Shown here piece after piece: positions 29,939 to 58,852 of a stretch of DNA of 64,000 nucleotides (its first letter is position 1; the number at the start of each line of letters is the position of its first letter). The DNA lies in contig OZ024742.1 in the NCBI GenBank assembly GCA_964016885.1, forward strand, positions 134,230,001 through 134,294,000, in the 5' to 3' direction. A model generated the notes under the pieces. It saw only the letters and a list, made by a program, of their open reading frames with translations. It was not told where the DNA came from and searched no databases. The position numbers were made by a program, and so were the translations under genes. This stretch comes from Eledone cirrhosa (Eukaryota).

Positions 29939-32900
29939 CTATTCTAAGGCGGGTACAATTCCCGAGATCCATGGATGACTTCTCTCCAGCGGTCTCTGTC
30001 CCCCATTATCGCTGCCATGTCCTGCGTCTCCAACAGACCAGTGTCTGTCCTTAGGGCATAAACATACGTTAACCTTGCTCTTCCTCTTCTAGTGTGTCCA
30101 TGTAGGGGATCCCAATGGAGCACTGAGTGCAATGTCAACTCTGGATGTCGGTGAGCATGTCCAGCTAACCTCAGTCTCCTCTGTGTCACTTTTGAGCTGA
30201 ATTTTGGGATGCTCCCATACAGCTCTGAGTTTTTCATCCTCAGTGTATACTGATTAATGTTCAGAGCCATCCTCAGCATTCACATGTAGCACCCATCCAC
30301 CATCTGAGTGAGTTTCTTGGTCAGTGTCCAAGTCTCAGACCCATACAGCAGCACAGACTCCACTACAGCAATGAAGAGGCGGATTTTCAGTTCACTACGA
30401 AGGTCCGACTTCCACACCAATCTCAAGCTGTGGCACGCCGCCCAGGCCTTGCTCTTCCTCTCAACCACATCATCTTCCGTATTTCCAATCTTTGCTCCCA
30501 AATACAGGAAGCCCTCAACCAATTCTAGCGGCTTCCCGCCTACATTAGTGATCCCCTCTGTCTTCTCAACATTCTCTACCAGATATTTTGTTTTAGTCTC
30601 ATTTTTTCTCAGCCCCACACTATCGACACAGTCTCAACCTCCCGCATCAAATCATCTGCCTCCTTCACTGTATCTGTCACCAAAACTATGTCGTCGGCAA
30701 ATTCAGCATCCGATACCTTTTTCGCCCTAACTCTCCTGCTCTGAGCCGGTGCTACAATAAAGCCAGAGTCCTGGTGTTTCTCCAGTGCAAGGCGCATAAA
30801 ATAGACCACTACGATGATAAAAAGGTAGGGAGCCAATGTATCTCCCTGGAGCACTCCAGCCAGTATATCAATGAACTCTGTCATTCTATCAGGTGTAATG
30901 ACTTAGGCTTTGGTGTTGGTGTAGAGCAGTGAAATCAGGTCCACTATCTTCTTGGGGATTCCATAAGCCTGTAAGATCTTCATCAGGCAGTAACGGTCCA
31001 CAGAATCAAAGGCCTTCCTAAAGTCAATGAACCATGACCGCAGGAAGGCACTTTGCTCTAGCTCCCTCCTCAGCATCAGGATGTGACTGGTGGTTGATCT
31101 ACCCCCTCTGAAGCCGTTCTGGTTGTCCCTGAGCTTCTTCTCCATCTCAGGCTGAGATCTGTTAAGAAAAATCCTGTTGAGGGTCTTTGCCACAAGTGAC
31201 GTCAGTGAGATCCCCCCGTAGTTGTTGGTGTTAGAGAGATCTCCCTTCTTTGGCACTGGGACGATGTTACTGATCCTCCACTGATTCGGGGCAACTCCGT
31301 ACTCCAGTGCCCCGTTACAGAACCCCAGGTTGATATCATCAAAATCAAACCTCTTCATCACCTCTGATGTCACTCCATCTTCTCCATGAGCCTTGCCCTC
31401 CTTGATGCTCTTCTTGGCTTTCTGAAGCTCCTCTCTGGGGAAGGGCTCTGTCTCAACATCCAGTTCCTCAAACAGCCGCCTGATCTCCCCAGTGCTCTGG
31501 GCTGCGGAGGGTGGCTCTCCTAGTAGGGTCCTAAAATGGTCTAGCCATTTTCTCTTCCAATCCTCGGGCCCCGTTCCCTGGATCTGACTCGAACACCTTC
31601 TCTTCCTCCCTGTAATCTCGTCGATGATCATCCAGCTCTCCTTACATCAAGATCTGTCAACCGCTCTCTCCACACTTCTAATCCTCTCTCTCAGTGCCTC
31701 GTCTCCGACTTCAGTGTAAGCGGTACAGAGCTCTTCCCTCATCACCTCCACTGTCTCCATCCTCTCCTCCATAGGATCAGCATATAATTGGTTCTTGGCA
31801 GCTTTCAGGAGTTTTCTGGCTGCACACACTTTTGGGTTTGCAGAGCTGACGTGCTTCCCTTTGTTCTTTTTCCTCGGCACCAGGGTTTCACTTGATTCCG
31901 CCACTGCATTGGTGAAGTGCCCGTATATCCTTTTCACACTCTCCTCAGTCCATCCAATCTCTCTCTCCTCTAACTCTCCACACAGAGCACTAAACCTGTT
32001 TCTCACTTCCACTGCGAACCTCTCCTGTAGCTTATCATCTTCCTTGAAAGCTCCCCAGTCATAGATTGCTCCCCGGGGCCAAGCCTTGCTCTTTCTTAAG
32101 CTCACCCGGACTTCAGTCATAACAAGCCGGTGGTCACTACCCAGTGTACTGAAATAGTTGTATGGTTCTGTGTCCAGAACACTATTCCGCCACTTTTTCC
32201 TCACCAAAATGAAATCAATCTGGGACTTGGACAGGTGCATATCTGAGATGTAGGTGAACATCTTCCCCAGATTCTTCCTAAACCTTATGTTGGTCGCCAT
32301 AAAGTTCGCCTCCAGCAGGGTGTCTCTCAGTAGTCTTCCATTTCAGTTGGTGTTGTTATGGAAGTACCAGCAAGGATCTTCACTGCCCTCCTTACTCAGA
32401 TGTGCATTGAAGTCCACCAAAACAAGCAGGATATTGTTTGCCTGAGTGGAGTTGACAGCTCTACACACCTCCTCATGGAACACTTCCGCATTCACATCAC
32501 TGACCCCCTCGTTTGGACTATAGCCTGAGATGACTGTCAGTCTTGGGTTTCCATTGAAGCTCAGCCTCAACACTCGCGGGGAGATAGGCATTATTTCCCT
32601 CACCAACAGATTGGTTTTTGCACTGAACACAAAACCCACTCCTCCTACTGCAGCATTTGTTGTGTTCTTCACTGCCGATGTATTGATGAGCTGGCTCCAC
32701 TTCCCGATCATCACACTCCTCACGGGCTCATCCTGTAGGATCCTGTGTTCTTGGATCGCAAGTATCTGTATACCACTCTCCTCAAACAGATGTCCCAACT
32801 CCTCTCTCTCCTCCAGCGTCCGGATAGTCCTCACATTCAAAGTGCCCATTTTGATGGCTCTTCTGCAGGACAAAACTGCATTCTTTATATTTGTCTCATA

Positions 32901-33230
32901 GACAGCTGATCCATCATCCACTGGCCCTCTCTGTGGCTCTAAGCCAGAAGAGTCATAACCACCAGGCTGCTCCTTGATAGTGTAATTAGGGGCTCTAACC
33001 CTAGTGTTGTTAGATCGACTCTCCATATTTCTTTTCAATGGCTGACAATACCTTACCGGTGCCACTCGAATAAGGTAGTTATTTAACCCATAAACGGAGC
33101 CCTAACAGGTACTACCACCCCGGGCCAGGACAGACCTGGGAGTCATGACAACTAAGGGGTAACTCCACATTCCCCAACTCCTGAACTCCCGAACTGGAGC
33201 CTTGCCACTGGATGTAGTTTAATGTCATAC
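29939..33230 (-). mobile_element. Full-length RTE/RTE-X clade LINE, single APE-RT ORF (33065-29944) disrupted by frameshifts and stops
   Basis: EN motifs GTLNVRT, ILAIQEHR, VDFNAHL, QIDFILV, SDHRLV. RT motifs VPVPKKGDLS, NQNGFRGGRST, FIDFRKAFDSV, GVLQGDTLAPYLF, FADDIVL, LLYGSETWT, RRLRLAGH. ~165-bp 5' UTR (33066-33230) and a short tagaa tail directly after the stop. Confidence 0.92.
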
Positions 33231-41199: not shown

Positions 41200-41900
41200 T
41201 ATAAAAATCTGATATTAACAAAACCTGCTTTCCCCGTTTGGGATCTTCAAATCATTTGTTATATAGCTTCAAATGTTTTTACGTGAAAATTCATATCTGC
41301 TGATTTTCGACCACAATGGTCCTTGCTAAATAAATCGATACTGATTTTATTGTTGTCACTTGCGGGTAAAGAAGTTTGCTAGCGTGTTGCCTCCACTTTC
41401 TTCTGTATGTTTGATTTGAAGGGTGTTTCTGGTATACGGTGTTCTGAATTTCTGGCTTTGGACTGCCATTCTTTGTTGGGGTGTCAGCCCGGCCTGTCCT
41501 ACATGATGTTCGCTGCAACCTTGACAGGTTATGACATGTATTAAGTTTTCGACGTTGCCCAAGTTGATCTGTGGCAACTATAATAACTATGTTGCAGGCC
41601 ATCTCCATATCAACATTTGTTTTCAGTATATTTTCTATGTTTATGTTTGCCGTCATTTCTTTATTGCTTATTTCTTTATTCTTATAGAATTCCTGGAATT
41701 CTATAAGAATCCAACATCAGTAATTTTTCAACAGATTTTGTCACAAACTTCAAATTTCATTAACGTTCATTTATGATATTTAGTCAACAACGCTCCATCA
41801 TGCATATAGAAAACTCATCAGAGATTGGGCTGTACCAGATTCGTTTCCAACAATGATAGAAGGATCCATATAAAAAAGCAAATTATATTGATTAATTTGA
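41200..41900 (-). mobile_element. Penelope-like element 3' fragment (GIY-YIG endonuclease) with decayed HHR-like end
   Basis: ENLIHVITCQGCSEHHVGQAGLTPQQRMAVQ (41356-41577) is a GIY-YIG-like segment (NLIY.I.C..C...YIG.T...L..R). Downstream minus strand: ttgaaga tccc-aaac-ggg gaaa (~41226-41250). Confidence 0.75.
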
Positions 41901-45049: not shown

Positions 45050-45136
<87 letters not shown>

Positions 45137-45145
45137 TTTATATAT

Positions 45146-45229
<84 letters not shown>

Positions 45230-45298
45230 TATGAAGAGAGAAGGAACATTTAGATATAATTAGTAATAAAATGTATCATACCTCAACTGCTCCTAGAT

Positions 45299-45388
45299 TC
45301 CTCGACTACGTAGTTTCGTGGCATAAACAAAAACAGTACATCATAAAGATATAGAGCCTTTGCGAGGTCTGCCGACTTATCAAGAGGA
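45299..45388 (-). ncRNA. Type I hammerhead ribozyme, U3-A8 core variant (copy 1)
   Basis: Reverse complement of the motif at 46362-46451. Confidence 0.7.
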
Positions 45389-45890
45389 TACCTCATTTTA
45401 TAGCTTCAAGAACGCATCTACACGACGTGAGAAAGAATCCCAAAAGGTGGAGGGGGAGATAGTCACGCGATATAACGGTCGAGAAACAGAGCTAAGCCTC
45501 TTATAACCCCGAAGAAAATACCACGGAGGCGGAGGGGGTATTTATATCGAAGCCGCAGAAGAGGTGGTAAAGGAGGAGAGAAGTATGAGTAATGGCAGCT
45601 TTCCAGCAGTCACTACACTTCAAAGATTACTCAACCAGAGGGAGTTATGAACAATATATTTAGAAACACACAGATACATGCGGACACACACATATACATG
45701 AATGCATCCACATCCAACCGCGAGTTAATGGTGCCAACCTCACCGATGTTGCTCAATGAATGACTGGGACAGACCAATCCGGTTGAACCAGACTGAACCA
45801 GTATCAGAGTTAAAAATACATTATGAAGAGAGAAGGAACATTTAGATATAATTAGTAATAAAATGTATCATACCTAAACTGCTCCTAGAT

Positions 45891-45980
45891 TCCTCGACTA
45901 CGTAGTTTCGTGGCATAAACAAAAACAGTACATCATAAAGATATAGAGCCTTTGCGAGGTCTGCCGACTTATCAAGAGGA
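45891..45980 (-). ncRNA. Type I hammerhead ribozyme, U3-A8 core variant (copy 2)
   Basis: Reverse complement of the motif at 46362-46451. Confidence 0.7.
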
Positions 45981-46361
45981 TACCTCATTTTATAGCTTCA
46001 AGAACGCGTCTACACGACGTGAGAAAGAATCCCAAAAGGCGGAGGGGGAGATAGTCACGCGATATAACGGTCGAGAAACAGAGCTAAGCCTCTTATAACC
46101 CCGAAGAAAATACCACGGAGGCGGAGGGGGTATTTATATCGAAGCCGCAGAAGAGGTGGTAAAGGACTTCTCGCCTCCTTTACCACCTTTTCTGTGGCTT
46201 CGATATAAATACCCCCTCCGCCTCCGTGGTATTTTCTTCGGGGTTATAAGAGGCTTAGCTCTGTTTCTCGACCGTTATATCGCGTGACTATCTCCCCCTC
46301 CGCCTTTTGGGATTCTTTCTCACGTCGTGTAAACGCGTTCTTGAAGCTATAAAATGAGGTA

Positions 46362-46451
46362 TCCTCTTGATAAGTCGGCAGACCTCGCAAAGGCTCTATA
46401 TCTTTATGATGTACTGTTTTTGTTTACGCCACGAAACTACGTAGTCGAGGA
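46362..46451 (+). ncRNA. Type I hammerhead ribozyme, U3-A8 core variant (copy 3)
   Basis: tcctc TTGATAA gt(c)ggc...gccac GAAA ctacgtag TC gagga. Perfect helix I tcctc/gagga, palindromic helix III actacgtagt, GUC triplet, extended helix II loop. Confidence 0.72.
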
Positions 46452-46682
46452 ATCTAGGAGCAGTTGAGGTATGATACATTTTATTACTAATTATATCTAA
46501 ATGTTCCTTCTCTCTTCATAATGTATTTTTAACTCTGATACTAGTTCCGTCTGGTAAAACCGGATTGGTCTGTCCCAGTCATTCATTGAGCAACATCGGT
46601 GAGGTTGGCACCATTAACTCGCGGTTGGATGTGGATGCATTCATGTATATGTGTGTGTCCGCATGTATCTGTGTGTTTCTAA

Positions 46683-46762
<80 letters not shown>

Positions 46763-47651
46763 TATACATATATAAACATATACGCGGAGACATGAAACTA
46801 ATTGGGTTCGTGCGGGTGCGCTCGGTTGGCCAACCGGGAATGAGAGAATTCTAGTACTTGTTAATACAGCCTTCAAAGAGGGGACACATTCCGATGTAAA
46901 ACATGCGAATTGAAACACCTAGTGATGTTCTCCTGTCTTTTTTTTTTTTTTGTAATTACCGTCACCGTTGCTCAGATATTGTGATTGGACCATTGCAACG
47001 TCTTCATTTAAATTATCAATACAGACAATACTTGAGCTAAACAACTTCCATATATGTTGCGTAAGCAGGGCCTTTTCTTATTTCTTTCTCTGCAATATAT
47101 ATATATATATATATACAAAATAATCTAAGACACTGGCAGGAATAAAAGTCATGTTCTCTCCAATCATATGTGAAAAAACGGACAAAGAATGGCAAATTTT
47201 GTAACCTCAATATAGCTATTATATACATAGACGACGGATATGCTGAACAACTTCGGGACATCCGGGTCGGCAACCGTATTACGATCACTCGGCATTTTTG
47301 ATCCACCGGTCACACCACACACCACCTAAGTGTTTTCTGTCTCGCACATCGTGCCAGACCCTTTACGTCGGGCTGGAGAAGAGAAGAGCAATTTATTCTT
47401 TCCTTACAACCCTTTCGTTTCTATAACCTAAATGTCCCACACATTTTCCTTAGACTGCTCTCTCTTATATTCTCTGAGAAAAAACTAAACATATTTCCTT
47501 TATCTTATGTTACAAGCTTAATACATACAGGCTTACATACAAATCACCGTTAGAATCTGTAGACATACACACTGTAAACTTCACCATACATACACACGTT
47601 CAAATTTAATCAATCACTCAACCACAAATGCAAACATCCACACATCAAACA

Positions 47652-53099: not shown

Positions 53100-53800
53100 T
53101 ATATATATTTATATATATTAATAAAAGGAATTCCAACTTTGTCTGATTTACTCGTTTTATTTACAATCCTTTAAAACGTATAATGGTATTAGAATGAAAT
53201 CATATGGTAGAATATTTAATGTTAACTGTTAATTGAGCAAGTACTTTCATGCTTTCGCAATCTTCAGGTTCATATTCTGTGGTGACGGTCAAGTTTGCAA
53301 CTGTAATGAGATGGGTAAATGTTGTGCTTTATATACAGTGAAAAGCGGCTACAGGATGCTAGTTTTTGCAAACTGTATTTCGACCAATCGGTGTGTAGTT
53401 TCACTGAATTACTAAATTTTTCCAGTTTTTGTGTTCATATATTGACTGGTGTGTGTGGATTGACATGTGCCACATTGACTATCATTGCATTTAGATACAG
53501 TGAATGATTGGTCTTAGTTGTTAAGGTCAAACTTTGCTTTTGTTAGTATTTGCTTCAAATTTGTCGGCTGTCTTTTACTAAGAGTCAAAGATCGGTCTGT
53601 GATTAAGGTTTTTCATTCATTAATTTGAGCAATGATCGGTAGGTTTGCTTTGGCAGTGTTGAAGATATTCTGGTGACATGGGTTGTGTGTCATTATAAAT
53701 GGTATGACCAGTTGTTGGTTTCTTCTTCCTTGGGCTGTCCTAAGTTTGTCAGTTCTGTAAGGCGTTTGTTCCTGGTATTCGTATCTTCTACAATGGTACA
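53100..53800 (-). mobile_element. Penelope-like element fragment (RT-EN linker and GIY-YIG remnant)
   Basis: LVIPFIMTHNPCHQNIFNTAK (ORF 53613-53957). ILTKAKF and VSKCNDSQCGTCQ (CCCC linker) read on the minus strand at ~53455-53550. Confidence 0.65.
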
Positions 53801-55269
53801 AATTCTTCTGGCTAGGAGAGAGAAAAGGAAAGAGAAGGAAAGGAGGAAGAACAGGGTAGAAAGATGAGGAGAGAGGAAGAAAGGGAAAGAATAGGAAAGG
53901 AATTGAAGAAAAAAGTGTACAGGTCTTATCGTGGGAAGACACATGTGAAAGAAGCATACAAAAAAAGTAACCGTGGAAAAATATGGAAAGTAAGTTGTGG
54001 CCAGCCTGGGAGACTTTAGCCTGGTGGTCAGCTACGACTCACAGCTGGTATAATCGTGCTGCCTCTCAAAATACACAGGAGAAAGTTAGAGAGAGACACG
54101 GGCAACCAAAAGTGAGGAGGAGATATACGATAATAGTGTCTACTGGGATTGGGTCTATGTGTGTGTGTGTGTATGTGTGTGTATGTGTGTGTGTGTGTGT
54201 GAGTGTGTTAGTTTGTGTGATTTTCTGCATGGTTTTATGAATATTTGATTTTTCTGCATATGTGTGTTTTTGACTCTAACTATGTTTCTGTGAACGCACA
54301 TATATATATGTGTGTGCGTGTGCGCTCGCAATATATGTTATATTCTATTTGTTTTGGCACGGCGCGTTCTACAGTCTCATATATTTGAAGACAGCGGTTG
54401 CATTTTGAAAATATTTTTCTTCGTGGGTGTGGGGCGAGAGGGAATATGGATAACAGTAGGAAAAGGGGAAACAGAGGGTGTGTTGTCTTTTTCAAACCAC
54501 CATAACTCTCCACACACTGCAGCACAACGTTCCAGTATTTGTTCCACAGTTTTGATAGGATCATGACAGTATGGTTGTAAATCAGCTAGATTTGGCTTCG
54601 GATTTAATGAGAAACTACAGTGATAACAATAGTTGTGGTCAAAGTTGAGAAACATCATACGCAATAATAATAAATAAACGCGAGGGTAAACAAATATATA
54701 CATGCATGAACGAATACATAAAGACACAACTCAGAACAAAAATATGTATCCACATAATGGCAGATATGCATATTTGTGCGCTTAAATGACATTTGCTTTG
54801 GCTATTCTGTGGAATAATAAATGCATATACACACACGCAAATAAGTCCCCGATCTATCATACGAATTCACACTGAAATATTCAAAGAACGACATAGCTCC
54901 ATGACAGAATATGACACAGAATCCAACTGGCACACTATACCTGAACGAAATATAAGCCAAGTTGTCCTCAAATAATTTTGTCACATATTCATAATAGGGG
55001 TGGTGATTTAAAAAAAATAAAATACCATGTAATGATTGCTTTCATCAGAAACAGCGATGTTTAAGCGTTTCTTGAATTAAATTTTTCTTGCATAGACAGA
55101 AATAAAGCTAGATGAATATAGCGATAACCTGCCACATTTTCTTTTTTCTAGTAACACAGAGGCTATAAAAAATAATAAATATGCGTTCCTTGGAAAGTAA
55201 AGATTTTATTTTGTTTTAGTAGTTTTTTTTTTTTGCGTCTTGTAGAACTCTAGACGCATTCTTGGTGGC

Positions 55270-57584: not shown

Positions 57585-58852
57585 ATGGCTAACAATATAT
57601 CATTGTACCTCGACTTTGCCAAGGCATTTGACAAGGTAGATCATGGCATCCTGGGATACAAACTTCGAAAGCTAGGAGTAGGAGGGAAAGTTGGTACATG
57701 GATACATGAGTTCCTTAAAAATAGAACTCAAACAGTCACTGTGAATGGAACCCATTCAACACCATCACCTGTGACCAGCAGTGTTCCTCAGGGTGCAGTA
57801 CTCGGCCCGATCCTGTTTCTCATCCTCATCGATGAAGATACAACCAGCAACATCTCATCCTTTGCTGATGACACCAGGGTCATGAGACAAATCAAAGACG
57901 AGGTGGATACAGAGGCCTTACAAAAGGACCTAACCACCATATACAAATGGCAGGAAACAAACAACATATTGTTCAATGATAAGAAGTTTGAACTAATTCG
58001 CTACGGAACAGATCAAGATCTGAAAAATACAACAAACTACAGAAACCCATCAGGACAACAAATAATGGAAAAACAGTGTGTGAAAGATTTAGGCATCCAC
58101 ATGGGAACCAGCCTAAAATTTAGAGAACACCTTGACTCAGTCTGTCTTACTGCAAGAAAGTACGGCGGGTGGATCTTGCGCACCTTCAAATCAAGAGATA
58201 CCTCAACAATGAAAACCCTCTGGAACAGTGTTACTTCCGAGGATTGACTACTGTTCTCAGTTGTGGTCACCATCAACAAAGGGCCAACTATCTAAGATGA
58301 AATCGCTCCAAAGAAATTTTACCTCATACTTCTCAGAAACGAGGGACCTGGATTATTGGCAAAGACTCAAAACCTTGAAGAAGTACTCAATAGAAAGAAA
58401 ATTTGAGCGATACCGAAGTATATACATTTGGAAAATGATAGAGCAAAAGGTGCCAAACTTTGGTATCAAAACCTACCACTCACTGCGCCACGGAAGATGC
58501 TGCCAGCTACCACCAATCAGCAAAAGGGCTGGCCAGGCAGCAAAAACCCTGCGAGAGTCAAGTCTGTTGGTTCGAGGGGCACAACTATTCAACTCCATTC
58601 CGGTACATGTAAGAAATCTATCAGGATGCAGTGTGGAATCATTCAAATTGCAGCTGGATAGATACTTAAGCACCATTAGAGATGAACCCCATCTCCCAGG
58701 ATATACACAACGAGCACAAACGGACTCAAACTCGCTCCTACACATGTCAAAATTAAACAGAGAATCCAACCTGGCAACCACACCAGACTCTGAGGGTGGA
58801 GACTTCGACTTGGCCTGAGCATGGACTCAAACCCAAATGAAATGAAATGAAA
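57585..58852 (+). mobile_element. 5'-truncated CR1/L2-group LINE (RT and C-terminus), one frameshift near 58230
   Basis: [67 protein letters not shown] and FKLQLDRYL. (atgaa)n tail at 58838-58852; flanked by TA arrays. Confidence 0.9.

What the first reader, a model, noticed from the sequence alone, without database searches (positions are those of the whole stretch)
45225..46689. Young, protein-free foldback element with three hammerhead ribozymes using a non-canonical U3-A8 core, inserted in (TA)n
Seen in sequence: a ~350-bp unit occurs twice in direct orientation and once inverted, forming a 514-bp-arm hairpin, all between two (TA)n arrays. Each unit reads tcctc-TTGATAA-[helix II]-GAAA-ctacgtag-TC-gagga. 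All HHR elements are present except that CUGAUGA is UUGAUAA. Established: C3-G8 is a Watson-Crick tertiary pair in the HHR core, so U3/A8 is a compensatory covariation rather than decay. Minimal type I HHRs with palindromic helix III are hallmarks of Penelope pLTRs and animal non-LTR retrozymes and can act as dimers; direct plus inverted pLTR arrangements are typical of PLE insertions. Inference: this is a recently mobile non-autonomous ribozyme retroelement family that canonical CUGANGA searches would miss. The direct-repeat HHRs are 592 nt apart and would release a unit-length (possibly circular) RNA, while the foldback would give long dsRNA.
Basis: partly seen in the sequence, partly recalled or inferred. 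Interest (0 to 1): 0.9.

Follow-up and report, generated by a model that had tools for sequence, protein, structure and literature searches.

The report
Penelope-parasite retrozyme with U3-A8 hammerhead
This is one of thousands of young insertions of a 592-base protein-free repeat carrying a predicted self-cutting RNA; it likely hitch-hikes on Penelope-like retrotransposons, and its two-armed copies pair one fixed end with the other, which would fit copying from both ends of a cut TA repeat.

Summary
The structure is real, but the unit is a 592-nt tandem monomer and the hairpin is one insertion outcome, not an element type. The U3-A8 core is the family state: 6,020 exact genome matches, none with canonical C3-G8. 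It is already published for Penelope-like element (PLE) hammerheads, and three autonomous Neptune-type PLE families here carry it too.

In 55 consecutive loci, 82 of 85 arms end at one of two fixed sites (A = 351, B = 514), mostly in (TA)n; 5' ends vary and arms reach 4.9 monomers. Head-to-head insertions were A+B in 26 of 28, never A+A or B+B. The rule repeats in an older subfamily and in 8 of 8 prospectively chosen autonomous PLE pairs. Ten of 28 cannot be snap-back copies. Target-like letters replace site A only in terminal copies (13 of 58 versus 0 of 120).

Best reading: an animal non-LTR retrozyme mobilised by a Neptune-type PLE through twin target-primed reverse transcription from the two ends of a 163-nt 'tail'. 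Cleavage, circular RNA, expression and the partner family are untested. A known class; the end-pairing rule is the new, testable part.

The parts
45054..45226 (.). left (TA)n target array
45224..46166 (-). arm 1: 943 nt, 1.6 monomers, 3' end at fixed site A (monomer position 351) joined to (TA)n
45295..45393 (-). type I hammerhead-like motif 1, U3-A8 core 45383-45377, predicted cleavage after 45304
45575..46166 (-). one full 592-nt monomer (reference used for all monomer coordinates, position 1 = 46166)
45653..45815 (-). internal copy of the 163-nt 'tail' between site A (45816) and site B (45653)
45887..45985 (-). type I hammerhead-like motif 2, U3-A8 core 45975-45969, predicted cleavage after 45896
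46167..46175 (+). head-to-head junction; the 9 unpaired bases are monomer positions 584-592 at the 5' end of arm 2
   Evidence: and the sequence
46167..46689 (+). arm 2: 523 nt, 3' end at fixed site B (monomer position 514) joined to (TA)n
46357..46455 (+). type I hammerhead-like motif 3, U3-A8 core 46367-46373, predicted cleavage after 46446; private T252C at 46427
46527..46689 (+). terminal 163-nt 'tail' (site A to site B), present on this arm only
46683..46782 (.). right (TA)n target array

Best explanation
The locus is one insertion of a dispersed, non-coding 592-nt tandem repeat with a predicted U3-A8 type I hammerhead, likely an animal non-LTR retrozyme copied by the RT and GIY-YIG endonuclease of a TA-targeting Neptune-type Penelope-like element. 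Shown: thousands of copies, two fixed 3' ends (A, B) in (TA)n, variable 5' ends, arms longer than one monomer, head-to-head insertions with one A and one B end. Inferred: the PLE protein cuts both strands of a (TA)n array; each target 3' end anneals to one of two AU-rich sites of the RNA, 163 nt apart, and primes its own cDNA (twin target-primed reverse transcription); the two cDNAs run for variable lengths along a circular monomer or an uncleaved multimer and are then joined 5'-to-5'. This window is the case where both stopped at nearly the same monomer position, giving a 521-bp hairpin. Predicted, untested: the hammerhead (probably dimer- or protein-assisted) cuts multimer transcripts into monomers that are circularised.
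For: Copy number and fixed core: 6,020 exact 21-mer matches; 14 with a non-U at position 3 (none with G8) and 12 with a non-A at position 8. Ends: 82 of 85 arms end at A or B, 79 of 85 with (TA)3 within 14 nt; 38 of 85 arms exceed 592 nt, maximum 2,907. Pairing: 26 of 28 two-armed insertions A+B, 0 A+A, 0 B+B (binomial P=1.5e-8; one is a local duplicate, so 25 of 27 independent); 10 of 28 have neither arm nested in the other. Older subfamily (84% identical): 11 A+B, 0 A+A or B+B, 4 with one unclassified end. Autonomous Neptune-type PLEs (RT + C-terminal GIY-YIG) show the same: 8 of 8 pairs chosen by RT position only, 11 of 11 read by eye in held loci. Priming by annealing: G348 reads A in 13 of 58 terminal and 0 of 120 internal copies (P=1.7e-7). 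One template per insertion: 0.7% within-locus against 3.6% between-locus divergence. RNA structure kept: active fold within 1.1 kcal/mol of the MFE; 9 of 32 pairs vary on one side and stay paired; 0 of 47 ribozyme-core positions among 38 family-polymorphic sites (P=0.036). Literature: two RT start sites delimit the PLE tail, both strands are cut and extended, dimer predicted (PMC11167929).
Against: No significant DNA similarity (beyond TG-rich low complexity) between the monomer and any of the sampled autonomous families, and a short-helix-II relative of the ribozyme was not found, so the partner is not identified. The most obviously young family (many 775-aa open frames) has a canonical C3-G8 core. 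No pair shows a change on both sides and the shuffle control is uninformative (500/500). In the circular-monomer fold helix I does not form. Near-palindromic junctions are in excess (7 of 28, P=5e-4), which snap-back priming predicts. About half of the insertions are single-armed. In PAc, RT started at a site not homologous to the cut DNA and hammerhead cleavage was dispensable for insertion in vitro (PMC11167929); 8 of 9 Xenopus retrozyme dimers did not cleave (bioRxiv 10.64898/2026.07.22.740005).
Confidence: 0.78

Rival explanations
1. Same element class, but the inverted arm arises by snap-back or self-priming (one cDNA, or an antisense template, folds back and is copied), as proposed for PLE palindromic junctions, rather than by two priming events.
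For: 7 of 28 two-armed junctions are within 15 nt of a perfect palindrome (P=5e-4), including this window; 18 of 28 have one arm nested in the other; PMC3846280 (passages) interprets such palindromes as self-priming.
Against: 10 of 28 are not nested, so one arm cannot be a copy of the other; snap-back gives no reason for the second arm always to end at the other fixed site, even when it passes the first.
Confidence: 0.15
2. The ribozyme is dormant or only protein-assisted, and the template is an uncleaved linear multimer transcript, not a circle. (Compatible with the insertion mechanism of the best explanation; it replaces only its last, predicted step.)
For: Arms cross the cleavage site up to five times; a few arrays are mosaic for linked family variants (L014, L021, L083); helix III is weak as a monomer and helix I is absent from the circular MFE; PAc hammerhead is inactive without protein (PMC11167929); PLE minimal hammerheads are weak in vitro (PMC4209133).
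Against: The core, helix II and the helix III palindrome are kept across subfamilies 16% apart; within-array differences are not clearly enriched at family-polymorphic sites (18 observed, 12.3 expected); U3-A8 ribozymes were reported active in vitro (PMC3088659, passage citing earlier work).
Confidence: 0.4
3. These are 5'-truncated ends (solo pseudo-LTRs) of an autonomous PLE, not a separate non-autonomous family.
For: Ends, tail, inversion and target are those of autonomous PLEs in the same genome.
Against: Arms up to 2,907 nt contain only the monomer, longest stop-free stretch 86 codons; PLE-protein matches occurred in 4 of 115 loci and lay in flanks away from the arms; no shared non-TA 5' flank seen in the loci read.
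Confidence: 0.05
4. A DNA-level repeat: foldback transposon, MITE or satellite amplified by unequal crossover.
For: Long inverted arms and tandem copies; the retrozyme preprint discusses local tandem amplification.
Against: Fixed 3' and ragged 5' ends, two different ends on the two sides, half of the insertions without an inverted arm, short dispersed arrays each internally uniform.
Confidence: 0.02
5. The hairpin is an assembly artefact.
For: Long inverted repeats between microsatellites are hard to assemble; no read was laid across this junction.
Against: The arms differ at 9 of 514 positions, end at different family-wide sites, and both ends into (TA)n appear in contigs of public run X1; 28 other two-armed insertions obey the same rule.
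Confidence: 0.02

Closest known systems
Animal non-LTR retrozymes (Cervera & de la Pena 2020, PMC7229834; Li, Clavereau & Pollet 2026, bioRxiv 10.64898/2026.07.22.740005)
   Same: Non-coding tandem monomers, one type I hammerhead per unit, thousands of copies, mostly short arrays; 592 nt lies within the 51-972 bp range of the preprint; proposed dependence on PLEs.
   Different: U3-A8 core with a long helix II extension; longer than the 150-450 bp of the 2020 paper; insertions carry explicit PLE marks (two fixed 3' ends, tail, head-to-head inversion, (TA)n target), which the parts I read of these papers do not describe; no similarity to the pLTRs sampled; circles and cleavage not shown here.
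EN+ Penelope-like elements, Neptune clade (PMC8557442, PMC3846280, PMC11167929)
   Same: 5' truncation, partial tandems, adjacent inverted 5'-truncated copy, tail on one end only, hammerhead upstream of the 3' end, (TA)n targeting.
   Different: No ORF; tail is 163 nt instead of 30-40 bp; the tail is here shown to be obligatory on exactly one arm of two-armed insertions rather than 'optional'.
U3-A8 hammerheads (Schistosoma Cercyon PLE min-HHR, PMC4209133; natural core variants, PMC3088659)
   Same: Same core covariation; palindromic helix III; G10.1-C11.1; bulge in helix II like the D. virilis Penelope variant.
   Different: Longer helices I and II, no extra base between A9 and G10.1, located in a protein-free tandem unit.
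L1 twin priming (seen only in search listings; mechanism recalled)
   Same: Head-to-head inversion from priming on both target strands, short overlaps or insertions at the junction.
   Different: In L1 the second priming site is variable and internal (recalled); here both sites are fixed and used as an obligatory pair.

Membership tests
Animal non-LTR retrozyme | Tandem non-coding monomers each with a type I hammerhead | tested here: met
   592-nt monomer, arrays up to 4.9 units, longest stop-free stretch 86 codons; motif in every unit examined
Animal non-LTR retrozyme | High copy number, dispersed, no LTR-type layout | tested here: met
   6,020 exact matches, about 3,300 loci by extrapolation from 100 matches in 55 loci; ragged 5' ends. 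PBS/PPT were not searched for specifically
Animal non-LTR retrozyme | Self-cleavage of the RNA | not testable with these tools
   Only folding and conservation
Animal non-LTR retrozyme | Linear and circular monomer RNAs in tissue | not testable with these tools
   No RNA holder listed; not evidence either way
Animal non-LTR retrozyme | Sequence kinship with a PLE pLTR (preprint criterion, met by 24 of 57 Xenopus families) | tested here: inconclusive
   No significant match to the sampled PLE loci; sampling covered 54 loci of more than 10,000 GIY-YIG candidates
PLE-type insertion (non-autonomous) | Fixed 3' end, 5' truncation, partial tandem | tested here: met
PLE-type insertion (non-autonomous) | Adjacent inverted 5'-truncated copy | tested here: met
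   28 two-armed insertions in 55 loci
PLE-type insertion (non-autonomous) | Tail at one end only, bounded by two 3' ends | tested here: met
   A/B sites 163 nt apart, 26 of 28 A+B; longer than the 30-40 bp in print
PLE-type insertion (non-autonomous) | Target-site duplication | tested here: inconclusive
   Hidden by (TA)n flanks, as noted for Naiad/Chlamys in PMC8557442
Autonomous PLE | RT + GIY-YIG open reading frame | tested here: not met
   No ORF in the element; present in separate families
Type I hammerhead ribozyme | Core N3-UGAN-N8-A / GAAA / UH with paired 3:8 and three helices | tested here: met
   U3-A8, GUC triplet, helices I-III can form
Type I hammerhead ribozyme | Rfam hammerhead model match | tested here: not met
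   No hammerhead family at E<=5; likely due to the long helix II insertion and variant core (inference)
Type I hammerhead ribozyme | Loop I - loop II tertiary contact | not tested
   Helix I has a single-A bulge; no 3D modelling was done
Foldback DNA transposon / MITE | Same terminal inverted repeat at both ends of every copy | tested here: not met
   Two different ends, 29 single-armed insertions, ragged internal junctions

The most novel reading that the evidence does not exclude
Penelope-like elements integrate by obligatory twin priming: one ribonucleoprotein holds two fixed AU-rich sites of a single RNA (here predicted to pair with each other in an 11-bp stem that encloses the tail), and each primes one end of a doubly cut (TA)n target. 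The 'optional tail' and the inverted pLTR are then one phenomenon, and this 592-nt circle is a minimal, sequence-unrelated parasite that needs only that two-site structure, with a U3-A8 hammerhead that current retrozyme screens overlook.
Probability: 0.45. Interest if true: 0.72.

Novelty: new variant of a known kind. Interest (0 to 1): 0.5.

Why it matters
How PLEs build their tandem/inverted insertions and tails is called an open question in PMC8557442, and the dependence of animal retrozymes on PLEs has rested on co-occurrence and pLTR similarity. Here a protein-free ribozyme repeat carries the full PLE insertion signature, and thousands of young copies give a countable rule (one arm per fixed site) that also holds for the autonomous elements of the same genome. 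The rule discriminates between twin priming and snap-back models and defines a small RNA substrate for an in vitro test. It also suggests that screens built on CUGANGA undercount retrozymes.

Tried and rejected
Rfam scan: only low-complexity microRNA-type matches, no hammerhead. Folding z-score of the 116-nt plus copy was unremarkable (-0.42). CpG/TpA decay of a canonical core: rejected. Search for a short-helix-II relative of the ribozyme: 0 matches. Search for the autonomous parent by DNA similarity in 50 GIY-YIG loci and 4 further RT loci: nothing beyond TG-rich low complexity and one nested insertion in L056. Expression: no RNA holder listed; the laid runs were contigs of unrecorded kind and cannot show RNA ends; the weak holders X5 and X6 (organisms B, C) carry 90-97% identical pieces at low depth and were not used as evidence of host range. 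Pile-up of 5' ends at the cleavage site (272): none; six ends at 281-291 (P=0.006, post hoc) are a weak hint only. Covariation shuffle test uninformative. Literature searches found no paper stating the one-arm-per-site rule or describing a U3-A8 retrozyme; the library lacks most subscription papers. The supplement of PMC7229834 could not be read and may list this family; supplements of PMC4209133 and of the 2026 preprint were not seen; the 2017 paper on dimeric PLE hammerheads (recalled) is not held. Earlier scan notes: none for this genome or sequence.

Full report
Observation. The sequence holds inverted arms at 45646-46166 and 46176-46696 (521 nt, 98%, 9-nt spacer) and direct copies 592 nt apart, between two (TA)n arrays. 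Three hammerhead-like motifs with UUGAUAA in place of CUGAUGA are present; my descriptor found them and one unrelated canonical motif in the window, and none in 30 shuffles. Rfam gave no hammerhead match. The three copies differ at 3 of 351, 9 of 514 and 6 of 351 positions.

The family. The window lies in a 3.0-Gb animal genome; I did not determine the taxon, and note only that the closest named relatives of its PLE proteins are from bivalve molluscs at 60-65% identity. A 21-mer spanning the core has 6,020 exact matches. Allowing another base at position 3 gives 14 matches, none with G8; another base at position 8 gives 12. U3-A8 is therefore the family state. An older subfamily 84% identical keeps the core and the helix III palindrome. 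To avoid bias from best hits I fetched all 55 loci that hold the first 100 matches along contig C1; this ratio extrapolates to about 3,300 loci. The unit is a 592-nt monomer (coordinates: position 1 = window 46166, read on the minus strand) with no long reading frame. Across 81 loci, copies within a locus differ by 0.7% and between loci by 3.6%, so each insertion, both arms included, likely came from one template and is young.

Ends. In the 55 loci there are 85 arms: 28 head-to-head two-armed insertions and 29 single arms. 82 of 85 arms have their 3' end at site A (about 351) or site B (about 514), 79 of 85 run into (TA)n, 5' ends are spread over the whole monomer, 38 of 85 arms are longer than one monomer and the longest is 2,907 nt. 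Of the 28 two-armed insertions 26 are A+B, none A+A or B+B, and two have one atypical end (P=1.5e-8; one locus is a local duplicate, leaving 25 of 27). Single arms end at A (15), B (13) or elsewhere (1). In 29 loci of the older subfamily, 11 of 15 two-armed insertions were A+B, none A+A or B+B, and 4 had one end unclassified, partly because my script split arms at the query end. Ten of the 28 have neither arm contained in the other, so one arm cannot be a snap-back copy of the other; 7 of 28 are near-palindromic like this window, more than chance (P=5e-4). At site A an internal G (348) reads A, as in the TA target, in 13 of 58 terminal copies and 0 of 120 internal ones; 11 of those 13 loci have an internal copy with G. 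This fits priming by annealing of the target end, though slippage from the adjacent microsatellite is not excluded. Contigs of public run X1 show the same two junctions into (TA)n at window positions 45654 and 45816.

Autonomous elements. A GIY-YIG search gave 10,597 candidates. Fifty loci fell into five Neptune-type groups (RT, CX4CX2C linker, C-terminal GIY-YIG; clade name from the linker described in PMC8557442, no tree built) and two loci without that linker. Family 2 (L061, hammerheads 4,979 nt apart around a 938-aa frame) has a clear U3-A8 hammerhead; family 1 and L078 show U3-A8 cores by eye; family 4, with many 775-aa open frames, has C3-G8. All end in (TA)n at two sites about 40-70 nt apart. 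Head-to-head insertions were A+B in 11 of 11 cases read by eye (two A ends are a few bases off) and in 8 of 8 family-4 pairs chosen from RT positions before seeing their ends. None of the sampled families shares significant DNA similarity with the monomer, so the partner is open: family 2 matches in core and in the letters of site B, family 4 in apparent youth.

Ribozyme. The active fold (helix I 9 bp with one bulge, helix II 6 bp with a C bulge plus a 14-bp extension, helix III 3 bp, GUC triplet) scores -25.6 against an MFE of -26.7 kcal/mol for the family-majority copy; the 10-nt helix III palindrome forms a -12.9 kcal/mol homoduplex, allowing a dimeric form. In 25 distinct copies 99.6% of cells pair, 9 of 32 pairs vary on one side only and none on both sides; the shuffle control is uninformative. 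None of 38 family-polymorphic positions falls in the 47 positions of the catalytic part (P=0.036). In the circular-monomer fold helix I does not form, which would suit a circle that avoids re-cutting but equally a weak ribozyme. Sites A and B are predicted to pair with each other (343-353 with 506-516; probability 0.3-0.99 depending on the stretch folded); AU-alternating sites pair easily, so this is a hypothesis.

Mechanism. Shown: dispersed young insertions, two fixed 3' ends, one per arm, multimer arms, target-like letters at terminal site A. Inferred: a Neptune-type protein cuts both strands of (TA)n, each end primes cDNA at A or B, the cDNAs continue over a circle or multimer and join 5'-to-5' (10 of 27 junctions overlap by 2 or more bases, 10 have inserted bases, values taken from BLAST ends). 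Predicted: hammerhead processing and circularisation. Overall confidence 0.78 in the class and twin priming; about 0.6 that the ribozyme cuts in vivo and a circle is the template.

Comparison with print. PMC4209133 (parts 1-2 of 4 read: results and discussion) reports U3-A8 in Schistosoma PLE hammerheads and proposes circles as templates for more-than-unit copies. PMC3088659 (passages) reports natural U3-A8 and cites in vitro activity. PMC7229834 (part 1 and passages; supplement unreadable) defines animal non-LTR retrozymes. The 2026 preprint (parts 1-3 of 5) argues that they are non-autonomous PLE derivatives, 51-972 bp, with 1 of 9 dimers cleaving. PMC8557442 and PMC3846280 (passages) describe inverted copies, a 30-40 bp tail 'often only at one end' or 'optionally present', (TA)n targeting and a self-priming model. 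PMC11167929 (parts 1-2 of 4) shows two RT start sites bounding the tail, cutting and extension of both strands, a predicted dimer, no strand difference in start site, and a protein-assisted hammerhead dispensable for insertion. It works like a PLE insertion and meets the sequence-testable retrozyme criteria; activity and circles are untested. My searches did not find the strict pairing rule or a U3-A8 retrozyme, within a library that lacks most subscription papers.

Verdict. Real, young and mechanistically informative, but a variant of a known class. Interest 0.5.

Noticed in passing
window 19049 (- strand): A separate canonical hammerhead-like motif (CTGATGA core, 7-bp helix I, palindromic helix III), unrelated to the family studied.
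   Followed up: no
window 53415-53812 (-) and 41371-41577 (-): Fragments of Penelope-like ORFs: 86-95% identical to family 4 at 53.4-53.8 kb and a more distant endonuclease fragment at 41.4 kb.
   Followed up: no
window 30903-33101 (-) and 57585-58247 (+): Broken reverse transcriptase frames (Pfam RVT_1), probably LINE remnants.
   Followed up: partly
L071 (three motifs about 500 nt apart), L166 (repeat of about 250 nt downstream of a PLE fragment), L067:103: Other tandem repeats or single motifs with canonical C3-G8 hammerheads and palindromic helix III, suggesting further retrozyme families in this genome.
   Followed up: no
G000, list: Dozens of copies of one Neptune-type family with identical scores and 775-aa open frames: an apparently very recent or ongoing PLE burst.
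   Followed up: partly
L063:1988-5062: Intact 1,025-aa Neptune-type ORF with a long TG/CA-rich repeat forming its pLTR and only a degenerate hammerhead; 60-65% identical to bivalve proteins.
   Followed up: partly
L014, L021, L083: A few arrays are mosaic for linked subfamily variants, suggesting template switching, gene conversion or a heterogeneous multimer template.
   Followed up: no
L081-L135, monomer positions 281-291: Six 5' ends cluster 10-20 nt downstream of the predicted cleavage site; post hoc and weak.
   Followed up: partly
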